Shown: positions 28,887-41,371 of the stretch, in pieces
Layout of the letters: each line of letters opens with the position of its first letter
Position numbering within the stretch: position 1 is the first letter of the stretch
Source of the DNA: Escherichia phage VEc33
Strand: one strand, 5' to 3'
Sequence record: NC_048818.1
Length of the DNA: 64,000 nt
Translations under genes and position numbers: made by a program
The notes under the pieces: model-generated
Database searches by the model: none
The model's input: the letters and a program-made list of their open reading frames with translations, nothing else
What the model was told of the DNA's origin: nothing

Positions 28887-28923
28887 AGCTGCTCCTAAAG
28901 TTAGCTATCTCTAGCTCTTTTAA

Positions 28924-28999
28924 TGGTAGTTAGTAGTGGATTTGAACCACTGTAGTCGCTCCGTATGAAGGAGGTGCATAACCTCTCTGCCAACTAACT
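28924..28999 (-). tRNA. tRNA-Met/Ile2 (anticodon CAT)
   Basis: Hand-folded: acceptor AGTTAGT/ACTAACT, T-arm GTGG-TTCAAAT-CCAC, anticodon loop TTCATAC, CCA encoded. Confidence 0.55.
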
Positions 29000-29166
29000 A
29001 GTTAATTCTTTATAGGTTAGATCTAGAAGATCTTTCTTACTGATAAGTCCTTCTCTATATTGGTCAATAAACATATCTATTCTAGAGTTCTCTGAGACTT
29101 CTATATCAGAAAGTTCAGCAAATATTTTTGCAAGTTTATCAATATCTTCCATACATAACCTTAATT

Positions 29167-29243
29167 TGGTACTCCGGGAGGGATTTAAACCCCCGATCTC
29201 TCGGTTATCAGCCGAGTGCTTTAGATCGCTAAGCTACCGAAGC
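29167..29243 (-). tRNA. tRNA-Ile (anticodon GAT)
   Basis: Anticodon stem CTCGG/CCGAG, loop CTGATAA; discriminator A; CCA encoded. Confidence 0.6.
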
Positions 29244-29244
29244 A

Positions 29245-29451
29245 TTAACATTTCACAGCAGAACGTTTGCCATTTCTAGGTGCACCGGGAAGTCGGGCAC
29301 ATTCCGCCATTTTTCTTTTTATTTTGCGGATGTTTTCAGGTGTTTGATCTTCTGGTTTTAGGCCAGATACATTACACCATAGTTTACCCTCCCATGCTGT
29401 AATGATCATTACGCCGTTACATATAATCTTTTCTGTAAAAGAAATTCTCAT
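29245..29451 (-). CDS. hypothetical small protein (68 aa)
   Basis: ORF between tRNAs. Confidence 0.35.
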   Translation of the reverse strand: MRISFTEKIICNGVMIITAWEGKLWCNVSGLKPEDQTPENIRKIKRKMAECARLPGAPRNGKRSAVKC

Positions 29452-29744
29452 TATCGTATCTCGTTTAGGTAAGAAGTATAATGGAATTTAGCTTCTCCAG
29501 TCTTATCTATTTCTACCTCAGTTCGTGGTACTTGACGAACCACGCCATGAATCATCTTATAGCGAATGCCTTTAGCTGGTTCATGATCTTTTGGAAATAC
29601 CTGTTTAACCGTTACTACTTTATACTCTTCACGCGGTGTTAACACAACTACTTGATCACCTTCTTTGATTTTCCAAGAAGATGGAAATTCATAGGTATAT
29701 CTTTGGCCACCAGTTTGGAATACTACAGAAAGATAACGCTTCAT
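29451..29744 (-). CDS. hypothetical protein (97 aa)
   Basis: ORF with promoter motif upstream. Confidence 0.45.
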   Translation of the reverse strand: MKRYLSVVFQTGGQRYTYEFPSSWKIKEGDQVVVLTPREEYKVVTVKQVFPKDHEPAKGIRYKMIHGVVRQVPRTEVEIDKTGEAKFHYTSYLNEIR

Positions 29745-29818
29745 TTGGTTTCCCTCTCATTAATTTATATAAATATTATAACAAGAAATAAGAGAGAAGG
29801 CAAATGAATTTTTAAATT

Positions 29819-29893
29819 TGGTGCTCCCACCAGGAATCGAACCCGGTTCAGATGCTTACAAGGCAACTGCATCGCCAGCAATGCTTTAGGAGC
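29819..29893 (-). tRNA. tRNA-Thr (anticodon TGT)
   Basis: T-arm CCGGG-TTCGATT-CCTGG; anticodon loop CTTGTAA; one mismatch in anticodon stem. Confidence 0.5.
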
Positions 29894-30060
29894 GATAATC
29901 CCATTATTTCAATGGGATTTCTTTTTCAAATACAGGGGATTTATCTGACATTACTGTCATTGCCAACTGCTGAAGAAACTCGAAAGTTAGCTTTAAACGT
30001 TCTTCGCCTAATTCAATCTCAACGTATTTCTTTTGTTTGTCAACCTTTAATTTTAGGTTA

Positions 30061-30282
30061 TCAGCCATCTTCGGATTCTCGTTGCTTGGCTACTGCTAGC
30101 CAGTCTGGTAAAAGAAACTTAGTACGAAACTCTTCATACGTTTCTTCTGGGTAAAAGCTAAAACCTCCTTTCTCATCATTCAAGATAACAGAGCCGTCAG
30201 TTTGTTCATAAGCTCGGTATGTTTCCCCAATAATGATAACTCGTTTATCGGTACTTTTATTACGAAACTCAAAAACGTGCAT
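30061..30282 (-). CDS. hypothetical small protein (73 aa)
   Basis: ORF. Confidence 0.4.
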   Translation of the reverse strand: MHVFEFRNKSTDKRVIIIGETYRAYEQTDGSVILNDEKGGFSFYPEETYEEFRTKFLLPDWLAVAKQRESEDG

Positions 30283-30298
30283 AATGTTTCCTTAAAGT

Positions 30299-30374
30299 TG
30301 GAGCGGCTAGAGGGAATCGAACCCTACTCAGCGAGGCTTGGAAGGCCTGCGACACAACCCGTGTGCTTAACCGC
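30299..30374 (-). tRNA. tRNA-Gly (anticodon TCC)
   Basis: Anticodon loop CTTCCAA; discriminator U; T-arm GGG-TTCGATT-CCC. Confidence 0.55.
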
Positions 30375-30382
30375 TTATTATT

Positions 30383-30458
30383 TGGCTGGAGAAGGAGGAA
30401 TCGAACCTACCATTAACGGGGTCAAAGTCCGTTGTGCTAACCGTTACACTACTCTCCA
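30383..30458 (-). tRNA. tRNA-Gln (anticodon TTG)
   Basis: Anticodon loop CTTTGAC; U1-A72; discriminator G. Confidence 0.55.
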
Positions 30459-30464
30459 ATTGTT

Positions 30465-30540
30465 TGGCTGGAGTGCCTGGGATCGAACCAGGAACCTTCG
30501 GAGTCAGAGGCCGACGATCTGCCAATTGATCTACACTCCA
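30465..30540 (-). tRNA. tRNA-Gln (anticodon CTG)
   Basis: Anticodon loop CTCTGAC; T-arm CCTGG-TTCGATC-CCAGG; discriminator G. Confidence 0.55.
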
Positions 30541-30548
30541 ATAATTCT

Positions 30549-30749
30549 TTACTCTACAGGAACCGTAGCTATTGGTTCTGGTTCTTCTAGACGTTTGCCT
30601 TCATGATCTACACGAATAACTCCGCATCCCTCGCAAAGCACAACAGCACCGTAACCTTCTTTAACTTCGGCTTCTGTAATCAAACCAGAAAGATCACCAG
30701 TATCTTTACCCCACATATCAATGGAGCATTGTTTGCAGAAATCAGCCAT
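30549..30749 (-). CDS. Cys-rich zinc-ribbon-like small protein (66 aa)
   Basis: CKQC ... CEGC pairs. Confidence 0.4.
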   Translation of the reverse strand: MADFCKQCSIDMWGKDTGDLSGLITEAEVKEGYGAVVLCEGCGVIRVDHEGKRLEEPEPIATVPVE

Positions 30750-30774
30750 ATTTTATTTCCTATTTAAGTTAATT

Positions 30775-30851
30775 TGGGGTGGCTAGTGGAATTCGAATCC
30801 ACATAGGCCTGATTCACAAGCAGGATCATTAACCAATTATGATATAGCCAC
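30775..30851 (-). tRNA. tRNA-His (anticodon GTG)
   Basis: Anticodon loop TTGTGAA; discriminator C as expected for His; T-arm GTGGA-TTCGAAT-TCCAC. Confidence 0.6.
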
Positions 30852-31405
30852 AATTGAAAACTCGCAGGGTTAGCGAAACCTTCCTCAATTAGCATGTTCT
30901 AGAATACTAATCAAGTTATCTCCTATTGCATGCAGCTCAAGACGAGTACGAATTTTCAATTGTGGCGGCTCTCAGAAACTCTTCTATTCTAGCCTCAGAA
31001 GCTTACCCCCGAACGCATGTCGGGAAAGTCTTTCCAGGAGCATCAAATAGCACCGTTACACTTTGAGCCATTGATGTATCAAGGAATAGAAGGGCTTGAA
31101 CCTTCACGAGATAGACCATTTATCTCAACCGCTTTTAAGGTATATTTCTAGGAGTGGATGTTCCTAGTAAACCTATTCGGCAGTCCCGTCTACCAATTCC
31201 GGCATATTCCAAGAATTTTTTATAAACCAGCAGAAGCCTCATTTAAAGCATCAATAATAGCTTCACGCTGGGTCATTCCATACCCGGTGGAGTCTAGGTG
31301 AGGCAAATAGGCTTCCCATCCATTATCTGTTTCATGAAGGCATGCTTTAAATTTTTTACCGTCCTTCATTGTTACAGTAACTGTTTTGCTCATAAGGATT
31401 CCTTA

Positions 31406-31495
31406 TATTTAATTGGAGGAAGGTAATGGAGTCGAACCATCACCGTATCACTACAGCGGGCTAGTTTTCAAGACTAGTTGCGTACCACTACGCCC
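31406..31495 (-). tRNA. tRNA-Ser (anticodon TGA), class II
   Basis: 90 nt with long variable arm; anticodon stem CTAGT/ACTAG, loop CTTGAAA. Confidence 0.6.
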
Positions 31496-31502
31496 TACCT
31501 TC

Positions 31503-31593
31503 CATTTGTTTGGCGGAAGAGGAGAGATTTGAACTCTCAAGCCGTTTTACCAGTCAGCCACTTTCCAAGCGGTTTTCGTCGCCAATTCGATTT
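31503..31593 (-). tRNA. tRNA-Ser (anticodon GGA), class II, tentative
   Basis: 91 nt; ...CTCTTCC-G-CCA 3' end; anticodon loop TTGGAAA resembles E. coli Ser(GGA). Confidence 0.45.
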
Positions 31594-31705
31594 GCTCTTC
31601 CAATAATAAGATGATGCCTCTATCACACCAGGCAGTTACGCCTCGCTGGGATTCGAACCCATTAAAACAGCTCAACCGAGATAGTAGGTTTAATTTACTC
31701 TGACC

Positions 31706-31782
31706 ATCAAATTTGGTGCGTGACAAGGGATTCGAACCCTCAAAACCCGACTTCTAAGGACGGTATGTATGCCAATTCCATC
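31706..31782 (-). tRNA. tRNA with anticodon TAG (Leu-type anticodon on a short class-I body)
   Basis: Acceptor GCGTGAT/GTCACGC, discriminator A, T-arm GAGGG-TTCGAAT-CCCTT; anticodon loop CTTAGAA; one U-U in the anticodon stem. Confidence 0.45.
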
Positions 31783-31787
31783 AATCA

Positions 31788-31866
31788 CGCATATTTGGTG
31801 GAGAATAACGGAATCGAACCGTTCTGATGTCCTCGGTGCAAGCGAGGTGTCCACTCCATGCAGACC
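31788..31866 (-). tRNA. tRNA-Ala (anticodon TGC)
   Basis: Anticodon stem CCTCG/CGAGG, loop CTTGCAC; G3-U70 wobble in acceptor; discriminator A. Confidence 0.6.
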
Positions 31867-32247
31867 CATTCCCCAAATTCTTTAGTTTACTAAGGCTATT
31901 AGCTCGGCGTAACTACAGCACCTTCGCTTCGAGCGGAAGGAACTGCGTCATCTCGCAAACCCAATACACTACTCAGTTGCCGCTGAATCTAGTGGACTAA
32001 TCTAGAACCTCTCCCAAATCGTAGGGATCGTGCTTTTTGGCAGCCAGTCCTAGGTCGAGCTAATACCTTAGTGAACTAAGATGAGGATTTCTCCTCATCA
32101 ATTTATATAAATATTATAACAAGAAATTAAGCATTAAGCAACTGCGTTTTTGAAATTTCTTGGACTTGGTACTCGGTGATAGAATCTAACTATCGCTACC
32201 GCCGTGTAAAGACGGGGTTCTCTCATTAAACTAACCGAGCAAAAATT

Positions 32248-35516: not shown

Positions 35517-35591
35517 TGGTGCACCCTGTTCGTATCGAACGAACCTCTCAAGCTCTTCAGGCAAGCGCTAATCCATCTCAGCTAAAGGTGC
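35517..35591 (-). tRNA. tRNA-Phe (anticodon GAA), tentative
   Basis: T-arm GTTCG-TTCGATA-CGAAC; anticodon loop CTGAAGA; weak anticodon stem. Confidence 0.45.
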
Positions 35592-35597
35592 AAATTT

Positions 35598-35674
35598 TGG
35601 CAAACCTACTAGGACTCGAACCTAGACCGTACGGTTTTAGAGACCGACATGCTGTCCAGTAACACTCTAGGAAT
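35598..35674 (-). tRNA. Trp-like tRNA with anticodon CTA (reads UAG), candidate amber suppressor
   Basis: T-arm CTAGG-TTCGAGT-CCTAG and discriminator G as in E. coli tRNA-Trp; anticodon arm TCGGT-CTCTAAA-ACCGT differs from the Trp loop CTCCAAA by one base; acceptor stem has two U-U mismatches. Confidence 0.4.
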
Positions 35675-35682
35675 GCAGAAAT

Positions 35683-35759
35683 TGGCGTCCTGTGCGGGGA
35701 TCGAACCCGCAAATCCTACCTTGAAAGGGTAGTGACTTTACCAGTTTGTCTAACAGGAC
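35683..35759 (-). tRNA. tRNA-Glu (anticodon TTC)
   Basis: Acceptor GTCCTGT/ACAGGAC perfect; anticodon stem CTACC/GGTAG, loop CTTTCAA. Confidence 0.65.
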
Positions 35760-35766
35760 TTAAATT

Positions 35767-35857
35767 TGGTGTTGGATGATGGAGTCGAACCACCCGAGAC
35801 CCTTCCGAGTCGGCAGATTTACAGTCTGCTTCGCTACCTCTACGATACTAATCCAAC
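35767..35857 (-). tRNA. tRNA-Tyr (anticodon GTA), class II
   Basis: 91 nt; acceptor GTTGGAT/ATCCAAC; anticodon stem GCAGA/TCTGC, loop CTGTAAA. Confidence 0.6.
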
Positions 35858-35985
35858 ATATTTAAAAGTATTCAAATACTAGTTTAAACACTTTTAAATA
35901 TGTTTCCGAATTAGATAACTATTATATCAAGTTTTAAGGCACTGAGCAAGTCAAATTTTAAAGAACTTGCTCAGTGCTGTATTAG

Positions 35986-37025: not shown

Positions 37026-37103
37026 TGGTGGCTCCCCGAGGATTCGAACCTACGTACCTTCCGGTTATGAGCCGGGTGCTCATACCATATGAGCTTGAGA
37101 ACC
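37026..37103 (-). tRNA. tRNA-Met/fMet (anticodon CAT)
   Basis: Anticodon loop CTCATAA with a G-C-rich stem; third CAT tRNA in the cluster. Confidence 0.45.
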
Positions 37104-37109
37104 AAAATC

Positions 37110-37198
37110 TGGCGGAAGAAGTGGGAATCGAATCCACAAGGCTATATTTCAAACCGACAGATTAGCAATCTGCTGCAATACCGTTATGCTATTCTTCC
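37110..37198 (-). tRNA. tRNA-Ser (anticodon GCT), class II
   Basis: 89 nt; acceptor GGAAGAA/TTCTTCC; anticodon stem GCAGA/TCTGT, loop TTGCTAA; discriminator G. Confidence 0.55.
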
Positions 37199-41299: not shown

Positions 41300-41371
41300 T
41301 ACCGACCGTAGGATTCGAACCTACATCTTCCACCAGTTACGGCTTGATAATACCAATTATACTAGGACGGC
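41300..41371 (-). ncRNA. tRNA-like element (acceptor and T-arm present, anticodon arm not foldable)
   Basis: Perfect T-arm GTAGG-TTCGAAT-CCTAC and acceptor-like GCCGTCC/GGTCGGT; no CCA; sits in an 840-bp ORF-free region. Confidence 0.25.

What the first reader, a model, noticed from the sequence alone, without database searches (positions are those of the whole stretch)
35598..35674. Trp-like tRNA carrying a CUA (amber-reading) anticodon
By hand-folding, this tRNA has the T-loop TTCGAGT and discriminator G seen in E. coli tRNA-Trp, and its anticodon arm TCGGT-CTCTAAA-ACCGT differs from the Trp arm (loop CTCCAAA) by a single base, turning CCA into CUA. The same change in E. coli tRNA-Trp produces an amber suppressor. 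The phage does use TAG as a stop (the 62668..63372 gene ends in TAG, in-frame TGA two codons later), so a functional suppressor would cause read-through. It may instead be a decaying tRNA-Trp copy: the acceptor stem has two U-U mismatches.
Basis: partly seen in the sequence, partly recalled or inferred. Interest (0 to 1): 0.7.

Follow-up and report, generated by a model that had tools for sequence, protein, structure and literature searches.

The report
Phage tRNA-Trp mutated to amber anticodon
This T5-like phage carries the family's usual tryptophan tRNA gene with one private base change that turns its anticodon into one that would read the TAG stop codon; nothing else in the window suggests the phage depends on it.

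Summary
A 77-nt tRNA gene lies at 35598-35674 on the minus strand, with anticodon CUA. ARAGORN calls it, and the Rfam tRNA model scores it 36.9 bits against a cut-off of 29.

It is the conserved Tequintavirus tRNA-Trp gene, sitting between tRNA-Glu and tRNA-Phe, with a single C35-to-U change (window base 35639, A on the plus strand where relatives have G).
- The CCA version is 100% identical in about 240 phage records.
- The CUA version was found in 0 of 277 phage records, and in none of IMG/VR, the metagenome contigs or the genome contigs.

The two U-U acceptor mismatches are not decay. They are invariant in distant relatives, while six other pairs covary.

The window shows no recoding.
- None of 106 genes mapped from relatives has an in-frame stop.
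- TAG ends 8 of the 106 genes, and reading through them would add only 2-17 codons.

Private substitutions in this lineage look like real evolution (27 synonymous, 14 non-synonymous). They hit tRNA genes as often as other DNA.

Most likely this is a real, recent, neutral or mildly harmful anticodon mutation. It removes the phage's own UGG decoding and gives at best a weak amber suppressor, probably inserting Gln. Suppression itself is untested. Interest is modest.

The parts
35598..35674 (-). tRNA gene with anticodon CUA. It is the Tequintavirus tRNA-Trp orthologue carrying one private substitution, and it has an encoded 3' CCA.
   Evidence: ARAGORN. Rfam RF00005 at 36.9 bits. It is 76/77 identical to the CCA allele found in about 240 phage records.
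35638..35640 (-). Anticodon CUA (plus strand TAG). The middle base, 35639, is the private change: A on the plus strand where every relative has G, which is C35 to U in the tRNA.
   Evidence: Alignments. In the singleton scan, 23 of 23 aligned relatives have G at 35639.
35517..35857 (-). Tightly spaced tRNA run Tyr(GUA)-Glu(UUC)-Trp*(CUA)-Phe(GAA), with 6-8 nt spacers. The same order occurs in relatives.
   Evidence: ARAGORN on the window and on 17 relatives' loci. Annotated records agree.
35893..35967 (-). Homologue of the annotated T5 early promoter P14a, upstream of the Tyr-Glu-Trp*-Phe run. It is the likely source of the precursor transcript.
   Evidence: The promoter is annotated in NC_005859, and the window is near-identical across it. 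The simple sigma-70 scan did not flag it, so its activity rests on homology.

Best explanation
The gene is the conserved tRNA-Trp of T5-like phages with a recent, lineage-private C-to-U transition at the middle anticodon base.

Shown:
- It is a tRNA with a covariation-supported cloverleaf.
- It is orthologous and syntenic to tRNA-Trp(CCA).
- The CUA change is unique among all public relatives searched.
- The window uses the standard code and has no gene that needs amber suppression.

Inferred:
- The change is a real mutation, not an error.
- The tRNA is still transcribed from the P14a-type promoter and processed with its neighbours.
- It can no longer read UGG, so the phage relies on the host's single trpT for Trp.
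- Because host TrpRS reads C35 and GlnRS reads U35, it would be charged poorly. [quoted passage not shown] It lacks the G2-C71 and G3-C70 pairs that GlnRS also uses.
- The net effect is loss of a dispensable phage tRNA, with weak UAG read-through at most. That read-through would be tolerated because TAG stops are few and are backed up by nearby stops.
- It is best seen as a neutral or slightly harmful drift event, not as a recoding device.
For: Identity as a tRNA.

Origin from tRNA-Trp:
- Only the anticodon base differs from T5_ev219 and NBSal003.
- 19 of 19 loci have CCA.
- 0 of 277 phage records are 100% identical to the CUA gene. 242 of 279 and 239 are at least 99% identical to the CCA gene.
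- There are no exact CUA matches in IMG/VR, the metagenome contigs or the genome contigs.
- ARAGORN calls no nonsense anticodon in 17 relatives' loci.

The parent tRNA is functional: six pairs have compensatory changes, 0 of 500 shuffles reach this, and slid controls give 0-2.

The mutation is real rather than noise:
- Private substitutions in coding sequence are 27 synonymous to 14 non-synonymous.
- Their spectrum is mixed.
- Three private changes in the adjacent gene are all synonymous.
- The private rate is 0.36% in tRNA genes and 0.35% elsewhere.

No dependence on suppression:
- No in-frame stop in 106 mapped genes.
- No TAG-joined ORF pair lies in the frame of a mapped gene.
- Stops are TAA 84, TGA 14, TAG 8. 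Six of the eight TAG stops are shared with relatives, and extensions are 2-17 codons.

Charging:
- The E. coli tRNA-Trp amber suppressor loses TrpRS recognition and is charged by GlnRS (PMC2965240; PMC9976931).
- GlnRS also reads pairs 1-72 and 3-70 and the 10-25 pair.
- The T5 GenBank note says T5's own tRNA-Trp with an amber anticodon is not a suppressor.
- Other private changes in this window damage tRNAs: Ser G53 to A, and the His 31-39 pair.
Against: - Both divergent Trp-slot alleles keep CCA in every relative seen. The anticodon is therefore normally under selection, and a neutral loss is an exception.
- Under neutrality, a private change that creates CUA specifically is improbable, roughly 0.5% per genome by my estimate from the rate. 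That leaves room for selection.
- The T5 negative result concerns a very different 71-nt allele that neither ARAGORN nor Rfam recognises.
- Only about half of the genome is in the window.
Confidence: 0.6

Rival explanations
1. It is a working amber suppressor kept by selection. It might rescue an amber codon in a gene outside the window, as in laboratory amber mutants or phage T4 psu+ strains. Or it might give useful read-through, or be a first step toward TAG reassignment.
For: [quoted passage not shown]
- The gene sits in an expressed tRNA run behind a conserved promoter.
- The specific change is unlikely by chance, given the rate.
- TAG is the rarest stop and the extensions are short, so the cost is low.
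- The model of Borges et al. places suppressor acquisition before recoding.
Against: - No in-frame TAG in 106 genes.
- No TAG-joined ORF pair lies in the frame of a mapped gene.
- There is no shift in TAG stop use. Two stops are TAG here and TAA in relatives; three are the reverse.
- The variant is a singleton in all collections searched.
- The acceptor stem lacks the 2-71 and 3-70 G-C pairs used by GlnRS.
- The T5 Trp allele with an amber anticodon did not suppress.
Confidence: 0.2
2. It is a sequencing, assembly or consensus error at one base, and the phage really has CCA.
For: It is a single-base singleton not seen in any other record. No reads are available to check it.
Against: - The site is not in a homopolymer, and the difference is not an indel.
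- The window's other private differences carry a clear signature of purifying selection, 27 synonymous to 14 non-synonymous, including three synonymous changes within 340 bp of the site. The assembly is therefore accurate, and the lineage has truly diverged.
- The private substitution rate of 0.35% per base is far above typical consensus error rates. That last comparison is my own inference.
Confidence: 0.1
3. The whole gene was already a dead tRNA-like relic, so the anticodon change has no consequence.
For: - There are three non-standard pairs.
- The Rfam score is among the lowest in the cluster.
- The cloverleaf is worth only -9.2 kcal/mol against a competing fold at -16.3, with a z-score of 0.32.
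- About half of the sampled GenBank records leave the CCA version unannotated.
- T5, VSe12 and phiLLS carry an unrecognisable allele at the same slot.
Against: - The 77-nt sequence is identical in about 240 records from phages only about 85-96% identical overall.
- Six compensatory pair changes occur in divergent alleles, while the mismatches themselves are invariant.
- CCA is kept in every relative and in both alleles.
- The gene was transferred intact to an unrelated myophage.
Confidence: 0.1

Closest known systems
E. coli tRNA-Trp amber suppressor (trpT with anticodon CUA; Yaniv et al. 1974, as cited in PMC2965240). From my own knowledge this is the su7 / supU suppressor.
   Same: - The same single change, C35 to U, in a tRNA-Trp.
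- An identical 7-nt anticodon loop, CUCUAAA.
- Four of five identical anticodon-stem pairs, the same T-loop, and G73.
   Different: - It is phage-encoded.
- The acceptor stem has U2-U71 and U3-U70 instead of G2-C71 and G3-C70, and there is a U27-U43 mismatch.
- The cloverleaf is much weaker, -9.2 against -27.8 kcal/mol.
- Suppression and the inserted amino acid are not demonstrated.
Phage T4 psu+ suppressors: anticodon mutants of T4 tRNA-Ser, tRNA-Gln and others, selected in the laboratory (from my own knowledge, not checked here).
   Same: A gene in a phage's own tRNA cluster becomes a nonsense-reading tRNA through one anticodon base change.
   Different: The T4 suppressors were selected to rescue known phage nonsense mutants. 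Here no nonsense codon needing rescue is seen in 106 genes, and the provenance of the phage is unknown.
T5 tRNA genes given amber anticodons (notes in GenBank AY543070 / NC_005859).
   Same: The same genomic slot between tRNA-Glu and tRNA-Phe.
   Different: T5's Trp allele is a divergent 71-nt sequence, sharing 63 of the 106 aligned columns including conserved flanks. Neither ARAGORN nor Rfam recognises it, so the result transfers only loosely.
Suppressor tRNAs of stop-codon-recoded phages (crAss-like, Lak and others; Borges et al., bioRxiv 10.1101/2021.08.26.457843).
   Same: A phage-encoded tRNA(CUA) in a virus of a standard-code host. TAG is the rare stop, and TAG-to-Gln through host GlnRS is the expected route.
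   Different: Recoded phages have many in-frame TAG codons. This window has none. The suppressor here is a private point mutant, not a lineage feature.

Membership tests
tRNA (Rfam RF00005) | A covariance-model score at or above the gathering threshold, with a full cloverleaf. | tested here: met
   36.9 bits against 29, model positions 1-71 of 71. ARAGORN also calls it.
tRNA (Rfam RF00005) | A cloverleaf supported by compensatory changes among homologues. | tested here: met
   Six pairs changed on both sides. 0 of 500 shuffles reach this, and slid controls give 0-2. Only six distinct alleles were available.
Tequintavirus tRNA-Trp orthologue | The same locus between tRNA-Glu and tRNA-Phe, and near-identical sequence. 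| tested here: met
   76/77 identity. The same order Tyr-Glu-Trp-Phe occurs in 15 of 17 relatives' loci.
Tequintavirus tRNA-Trp orthologue | Anticodon CCA, reading UGG. | tested here: not met
   The anticodon is CUA. All relatives have CCA.
Amber suppressor tRNA | Anticodon CUA in a normal 7-nt loop, with U33 and a purine at position 37. | tested here: met
   The loop is C-U-CUA-A-A, identical to the loop trpT would have with CUA.
Amber suppressor tRNA | Aminoacylated by a cellular synthetase. | not testable with these tools
   Inference only. U35, G73 and G10 favour GlnRS. The missing G2-C71 and G3-C70 pairs and the lost C35 argue for poor charging.
Amber suppressor tRNA | Measurable UAG read-through in vivo. 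| not testable with these tools
   The only related experiment is the negative note for the different T5 allele.
Stop-codon-recoded phage (TAG read as sense) | In-frame TAG codons inside conserved genes. | tested here: not met
   0 of 106 genes mapped from annotated relatives contain a stop. The eight TAG-joined ORF pairs are six antisense to mapped genes, one out of frame within the 59513-62377 gene, and one (9727) in a stretch with no mapped gene. Only the 64-kb window was examined.
Stop-codon-recoded phage (TAG read as sense) | TAG avoided as a true stop relative to relatives. | tested here: not met
   TAG ends 8 of 106 genes. Six are shared with relatives, two are gained and three are lost.
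tRNA-Pyl (ARAGORN's label) | pylT-type structure: no G18G19 or T-Psi-C motifs, a 3-nt variable loop and a 6-bp anticodon stem (features from my own knowledge). | tested here: not met
   The gene has GG in the D-loop, a UUCGAGU T-loop, a 5-nt variable region and a 5-position anticodon stem. The label only reflects the CUA anticodon.

The most novel reading that the evidence does not exclude
A natural, standard-code, virulent T5-like phage has just converted its own tRNA-Trp into a working amber suppressor that selection keeps. It would either rescue an amber codon in the unseen half of the genome, or be a caught-in-the-act first step of the 'suppressor first, recoding later' route proposed for recoded phages.
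Probability: 0.1. Interest if true: 0.7.

Novelty: new member of a known kind. Interest (0 to 1): 0.3.

Why it matters
If the tRNA does suppress, this would be a naturally occurring amber suppressor in a well-studied, easily grown coliphage and Salmonella phage family. That would make a convenient system for asking how a virus tolerates, or exploits, read-through in a standard-code host, and how stop-codon reassignment begins.

If it does not suppress, which is more likely, it is a small but clear example that phage tRNA genes can lose their decoding role through single mutations. It also has a practical lesson for annotation. The 'tRNA-Pyl' or 'tRNA-Sup' call here is a point-mutated tRNA-Trp, not evidence of an alternative code.

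Tried and rejected
- **Amber codons to rescue.** I mapped 221 annotated proteins of phages S131 and T5_ev219 onto the window. All 106 genes matched were uninterrupted. A first scan using every stop-to-stop segment gave 84 'in-frame stops'; I checked the TAG cases and all segments of 100 aa or more against the annotation, and every one was antisense, out of frame, upstream of the start codon or in unannotated DNA. A TAG-as-sense ORF merge scan gave eight pairs, none in the frame of a mapped gene.
- **The CUA variant elsewhere.** I found none in the phage records, IMG/VR, the metagenome contigs or the genome contigs.
- **The source genome.** Exact-protein look-ups for two window proteins were not on record, so the other half of the genome could not be examined.
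- **A mutagen signature.** I tested whether private substitutions suggest chemical mutagenesis, as used for classical amber-mutant stocks. The spectrum is mixed: 23 A:T-to-G:C, 13 G:C-to-A:T and 17 transversions. Rejected.
- **Literature on T5-family CUA tRNAs.** I found nothing specific.
- **Thermodynamic folding alone.** It does not recover the cloverleaf. I did not take this as evidence against a tRNA, because the conserved CCA allele behaves the same way.
- **tRNA-Pyl.** Rejected on structure.
- **Escape from an anticodon nuclease.** Rejected by reasoning: a CUA tRNA cannot replace a cleaved tRNA-Trp.

Full report
**1. What is there**

ARAGORN finds 23 tRNA genes on the minus strand between 28.9 and 40.8 kb. 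One of them lies at 35598-35674 and has anticodon cta. ARAGORN labels it 'tRNA-Pyl', which is only its name for CUA.

The Rfam tRNA model scores the gene at 36.9 bits against a gathering score of 29, over the whole model. It marks non-standard pairs at 2-71, 3-70 and 27-43.

Read directly, the RNA is AUUCCUA-GA-GUGU-UACUGGACA-GCAU-G-UCGGU-CUCUAAA-ACCGU-ACGGU-CUAGG-UUCGAGU-CCUAG-UAGGUUU-G-CCA.

I recalled the E. coli trpT sequence and then verified it: it is 100% identical and annotated tRNA-Trp in 5394 of 5426 complete genomes. It shares the anticodon-arm core, the T-loop and G73-CCA with this gene.

**2. Where it comes from**

The window is a Tequintavirus, a T5-like phage. Its nearest public relatives are Salmonella phage S131 and Escherichia phage T5_ev219, at about 96% identity over about 92% of a 24-kb query. 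No record matches at more than 99% over most of that query.

In the relatives the same slot, between tRNA-Glu and tRNA-Phe, holds a gene annotated tRNA-Trp. It differs from the window's gene at one base only, the middle of the anticodon: CCA in relatives, CUA here.
- All 19 loci first fetched have CCA.
- ARAGORN reads cca at this slot in 15 of 17 relatives' loci, and no nonsense anticodon in any tRNA it calls there.
- With the window's gene as query, 277 phage records match and none is identical.
- With the CCA gene as query, 242 of 279 records and 239 in a second search are at least 99% identical.
- Exact searches for the CUA version found nothing in IMG/VR, the metagenome contigs or the genome contigs.

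The change is therefore derived and private. It is plus-strand G to A at 35639, which is C35 to U in the tRNA.

**3. Is the parent gene a real tRNA or a relic?**

Evidence for a relic:
- There are three mismatches.
- The model score is low.
- The cloverleaf is worth only -9.2 kcal/mol, against a competing fold at -16.3.
- About half of the sampled GenBank records leave the CCA gene unannotated.

Evidence against a relic:
- The 77 nt are identical across about 240 records from phages that otherwise differ by 4-15%.
- Divergent alleles come from an Epseptimavirus, Klebsiella phage Sugarland and the unrelated myophage FBKp34. Among them, six pairs change on both sides and stay paired (four in the T-stem, two in the acceptor stem).
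- In those same alleles the U-U mismatches at 2-71, 3-70 and 27-43 never change.
- 0 of 500 shuffles reach the observed covariation, and slid controls give 0-2 compensatory pairs.

The mismatches are a conserved peculiarity, not decay.

T5 itself, VSe12 and phiLLS carry a second, very different 71-nt allele at this slot. It also keeps CCA, but neither ARAGORN nor Rfam recognises it.

**4. Real mutation or error?**

I compared window 24000-48000 with 25 relatives' loci.
- 79 of 22,577 positions are private to the window.
- The private rate is 7 of 1,949 nt in tRNA genes (0.36%) and 72 of 20,628 nt elsewhere (0.35%).
- Among private changes with a unanimous ancestral base that fall in genes, 27 are synonymous and 14 are not. 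Random errors would give the opposite ratio.
- The three private changes in the gene next to the tRNA are all synonymous.
- The spectrum is mixed, not mutagen-like.

The assembly is therefore reliable and the lineage has genuinely diverged, so a true mutation is far more likely than an error. Without reads, an error cannot be excluded.

Other private changes in this window's tRNAs look harmful or odd:
- tRNA-Ser(GCU) loses the universal G53-C61 pair.
- tRNA-His loses its 31-39 pair.
- tRNA-Gln(UUG) changes both partners of its 31-39 pair.

This fits weak constraint on the tRNA set in this lineage.

**5. Does the phage need or use amber suppression?**

I mapped every annotated protein of S131 and T5_ev219 onto the window.
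- 106 genes matched, none with an internal stop, and essentially all at full length.
- Their stops are TAA 84, TGA 14 and TAG 8.
- After each TAG, the next in-frame stop comes 2-17 codons later.
- Six of the eight TAG stops are shared with relatives. Two are TAG here and TAA in relatives, and three are the reverse.
- A scan treating TAG as sense found eight places where two ORFs of at least 50 codons are joined by a TAG. Six are antisense to mapped genes, one is out of frame within the 59513-62377 gene, and one (9727) lies in a stretch with no mapped gene.

The window uses the standard code, and nothing in it depends on the CUA tRNA. The other half of the genome could not be found.

**6. How it would work**

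Expression is likely. The gene sits 6-8 nt from its neighbours in the Tyr-Glu-Trp-Phe run. Upstream lies a near-identical copy of the promoter annotated as P14a in T5.

Decoding of UAG should be possible. [quoted passage not shown]

Charging is the weak point.
- In E. coli, the CUA form of tRNA-Trp loses TrpRS recognition and is charged by GlnRS (PMC2965240; PMC9976931).
- GlnRS also reads acceptor pairs 1-72 and 3-70 and the 10-25 pair.
- This phage tRNA has G73, A1-U72 and G10, but U-U at 2-71 and 3-70.
- The GenBank record of T5 carries experimental notes for each tRNA. For T5's tRNA-Trp, the amber anticodon 'does not convert this tRNA into amber suppressor'. That allele is very different, so the result is only a hint.

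My best reading is loss of the phage's own UGG decoding, which the host's single trpT covers. At most there would be weak, mainly Gln-inserting, read-through of a few TAG stops with short extensions.

**7. Chance and selection**

With a private rate of about 0.35% per site, only three single-base routes lead to CUA in this tRNA set: Trp CCA, Gln CUG and Tyr GUA. The chance of such an event in one genome under neutrality is roughly 0.5%, by my estimate.

That is rare, but expected now and then among thousands of sequenced phages. It is also exactly the kind of thing a scan would pick out. It leaves a minority chance, which I put near 0.2, that the change was selected. It might rescue an amber codon outside the window, or act as the first step in the 'suppressor first' route to recoding described by Borges et al..

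**8. Comparison and verdict**

The gene works like, and arose like, the classical anticodon-mutant suppressors: the E. coli tRNA-Trp amber suppressor (known to me as su7) and, from my own knowledge, the T4 psu+ strains.
- It meets the structural criteria of a tRNA.
- It meets the CUA criterion of an amber suppressor.
- It fails the CCA criterion of a tRNA-Trp.
- It fails the criteria of a recoded phage.
- It is not a pyrrolysine tRNA.

It is a new member of a known kind. Interest is modest unless suppression or dependence on it is shown.

Noticed in passing
window 35598-35674 (-); L030, L031, L032, L033: The tandem U2-U71 and U3-U70 mismatches and the U27-U43 mismatch of this phage tRNA-Trp are invariant from Tequintavirus to Sugarlandvirus and in a Stephanstirmvirinae myophage, while neighbouring pairs covary. 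The cloverleaf is worth only -9.2 kcal/mol. A conserved, deliberately weak acceptor stem is unexplained.
   Followed up: partly
window 37110-37198 (-), base 37133: tRNA-Ser(GCU) carries a private G-to-A change that breaks the near-universal G53-C61 T-stem pair. All 20 or so aligned relatives have G.
   Followed up: partly
window 30775-30851 (-), base 30820; window 30383-30458 (-), bases 30420 and 30428: tRNA-His has a private A-to-C change that breaks its 31-39 pair. tRNA-Gln(UUG) has private changes at both partners of its 31-39 position (C and U in relatives, A and C here), and neither combination is a standard pair.
   Followed up: partly
window 37029-37103 (-) and 41300-41371 (-): Rfam calls two further tRNAs that ARAGORN misses in the window. 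The first matches the tRNA annotated Ile2(CAU) in T5 and Met(CAT) in S131. The second lies in the homologue of T5 'RNAX', where ARAGORN reads a Ser(act)-like gene in some relatives and VSe12 annotates a pseudo 'tRNA-OTHER'.
   Followed up: no
L020 7178-7248; L028 10700-10785; L029 10945-11030: T5, VSe12 and phiLLS hold a second, highly divergent 71-nt allele at the Trp slot. It keeps CCA, but neither ARAGORN nor the Rfam tRNA model detects it. Two alleles therefore segregate in the genus at one locus.
   Followed up: partly
L031 (Klebsiella phage vB_KpM_FBKp34, MW394390 104784-104857): A 95.8% identical copy of this tRNA-Trp sits next to tRNA-Phe and tRNA-Asn in a myophage of a different subfamily. 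This suggests transfer of a tRNA cassette between unrelated phages.
   Followed up: no
phage records listed: About half of the GenBank records sampled leave the conserved tRNA-Trp(CCA) gene unannotated. Counts of tRNA genes reported for T5-like phages are therefore inconsistent.
   Followed up: no
window 28900-31900: ARAGORN finds no tRNA-Gly(UCC) and no tRNA-Ser(GGA) in the window. T5 and T5_ev219 annotate both, and several other relatives have tRNA-Gly(UCC). The tRNA complement varies between close relatives.
   Followed up: no
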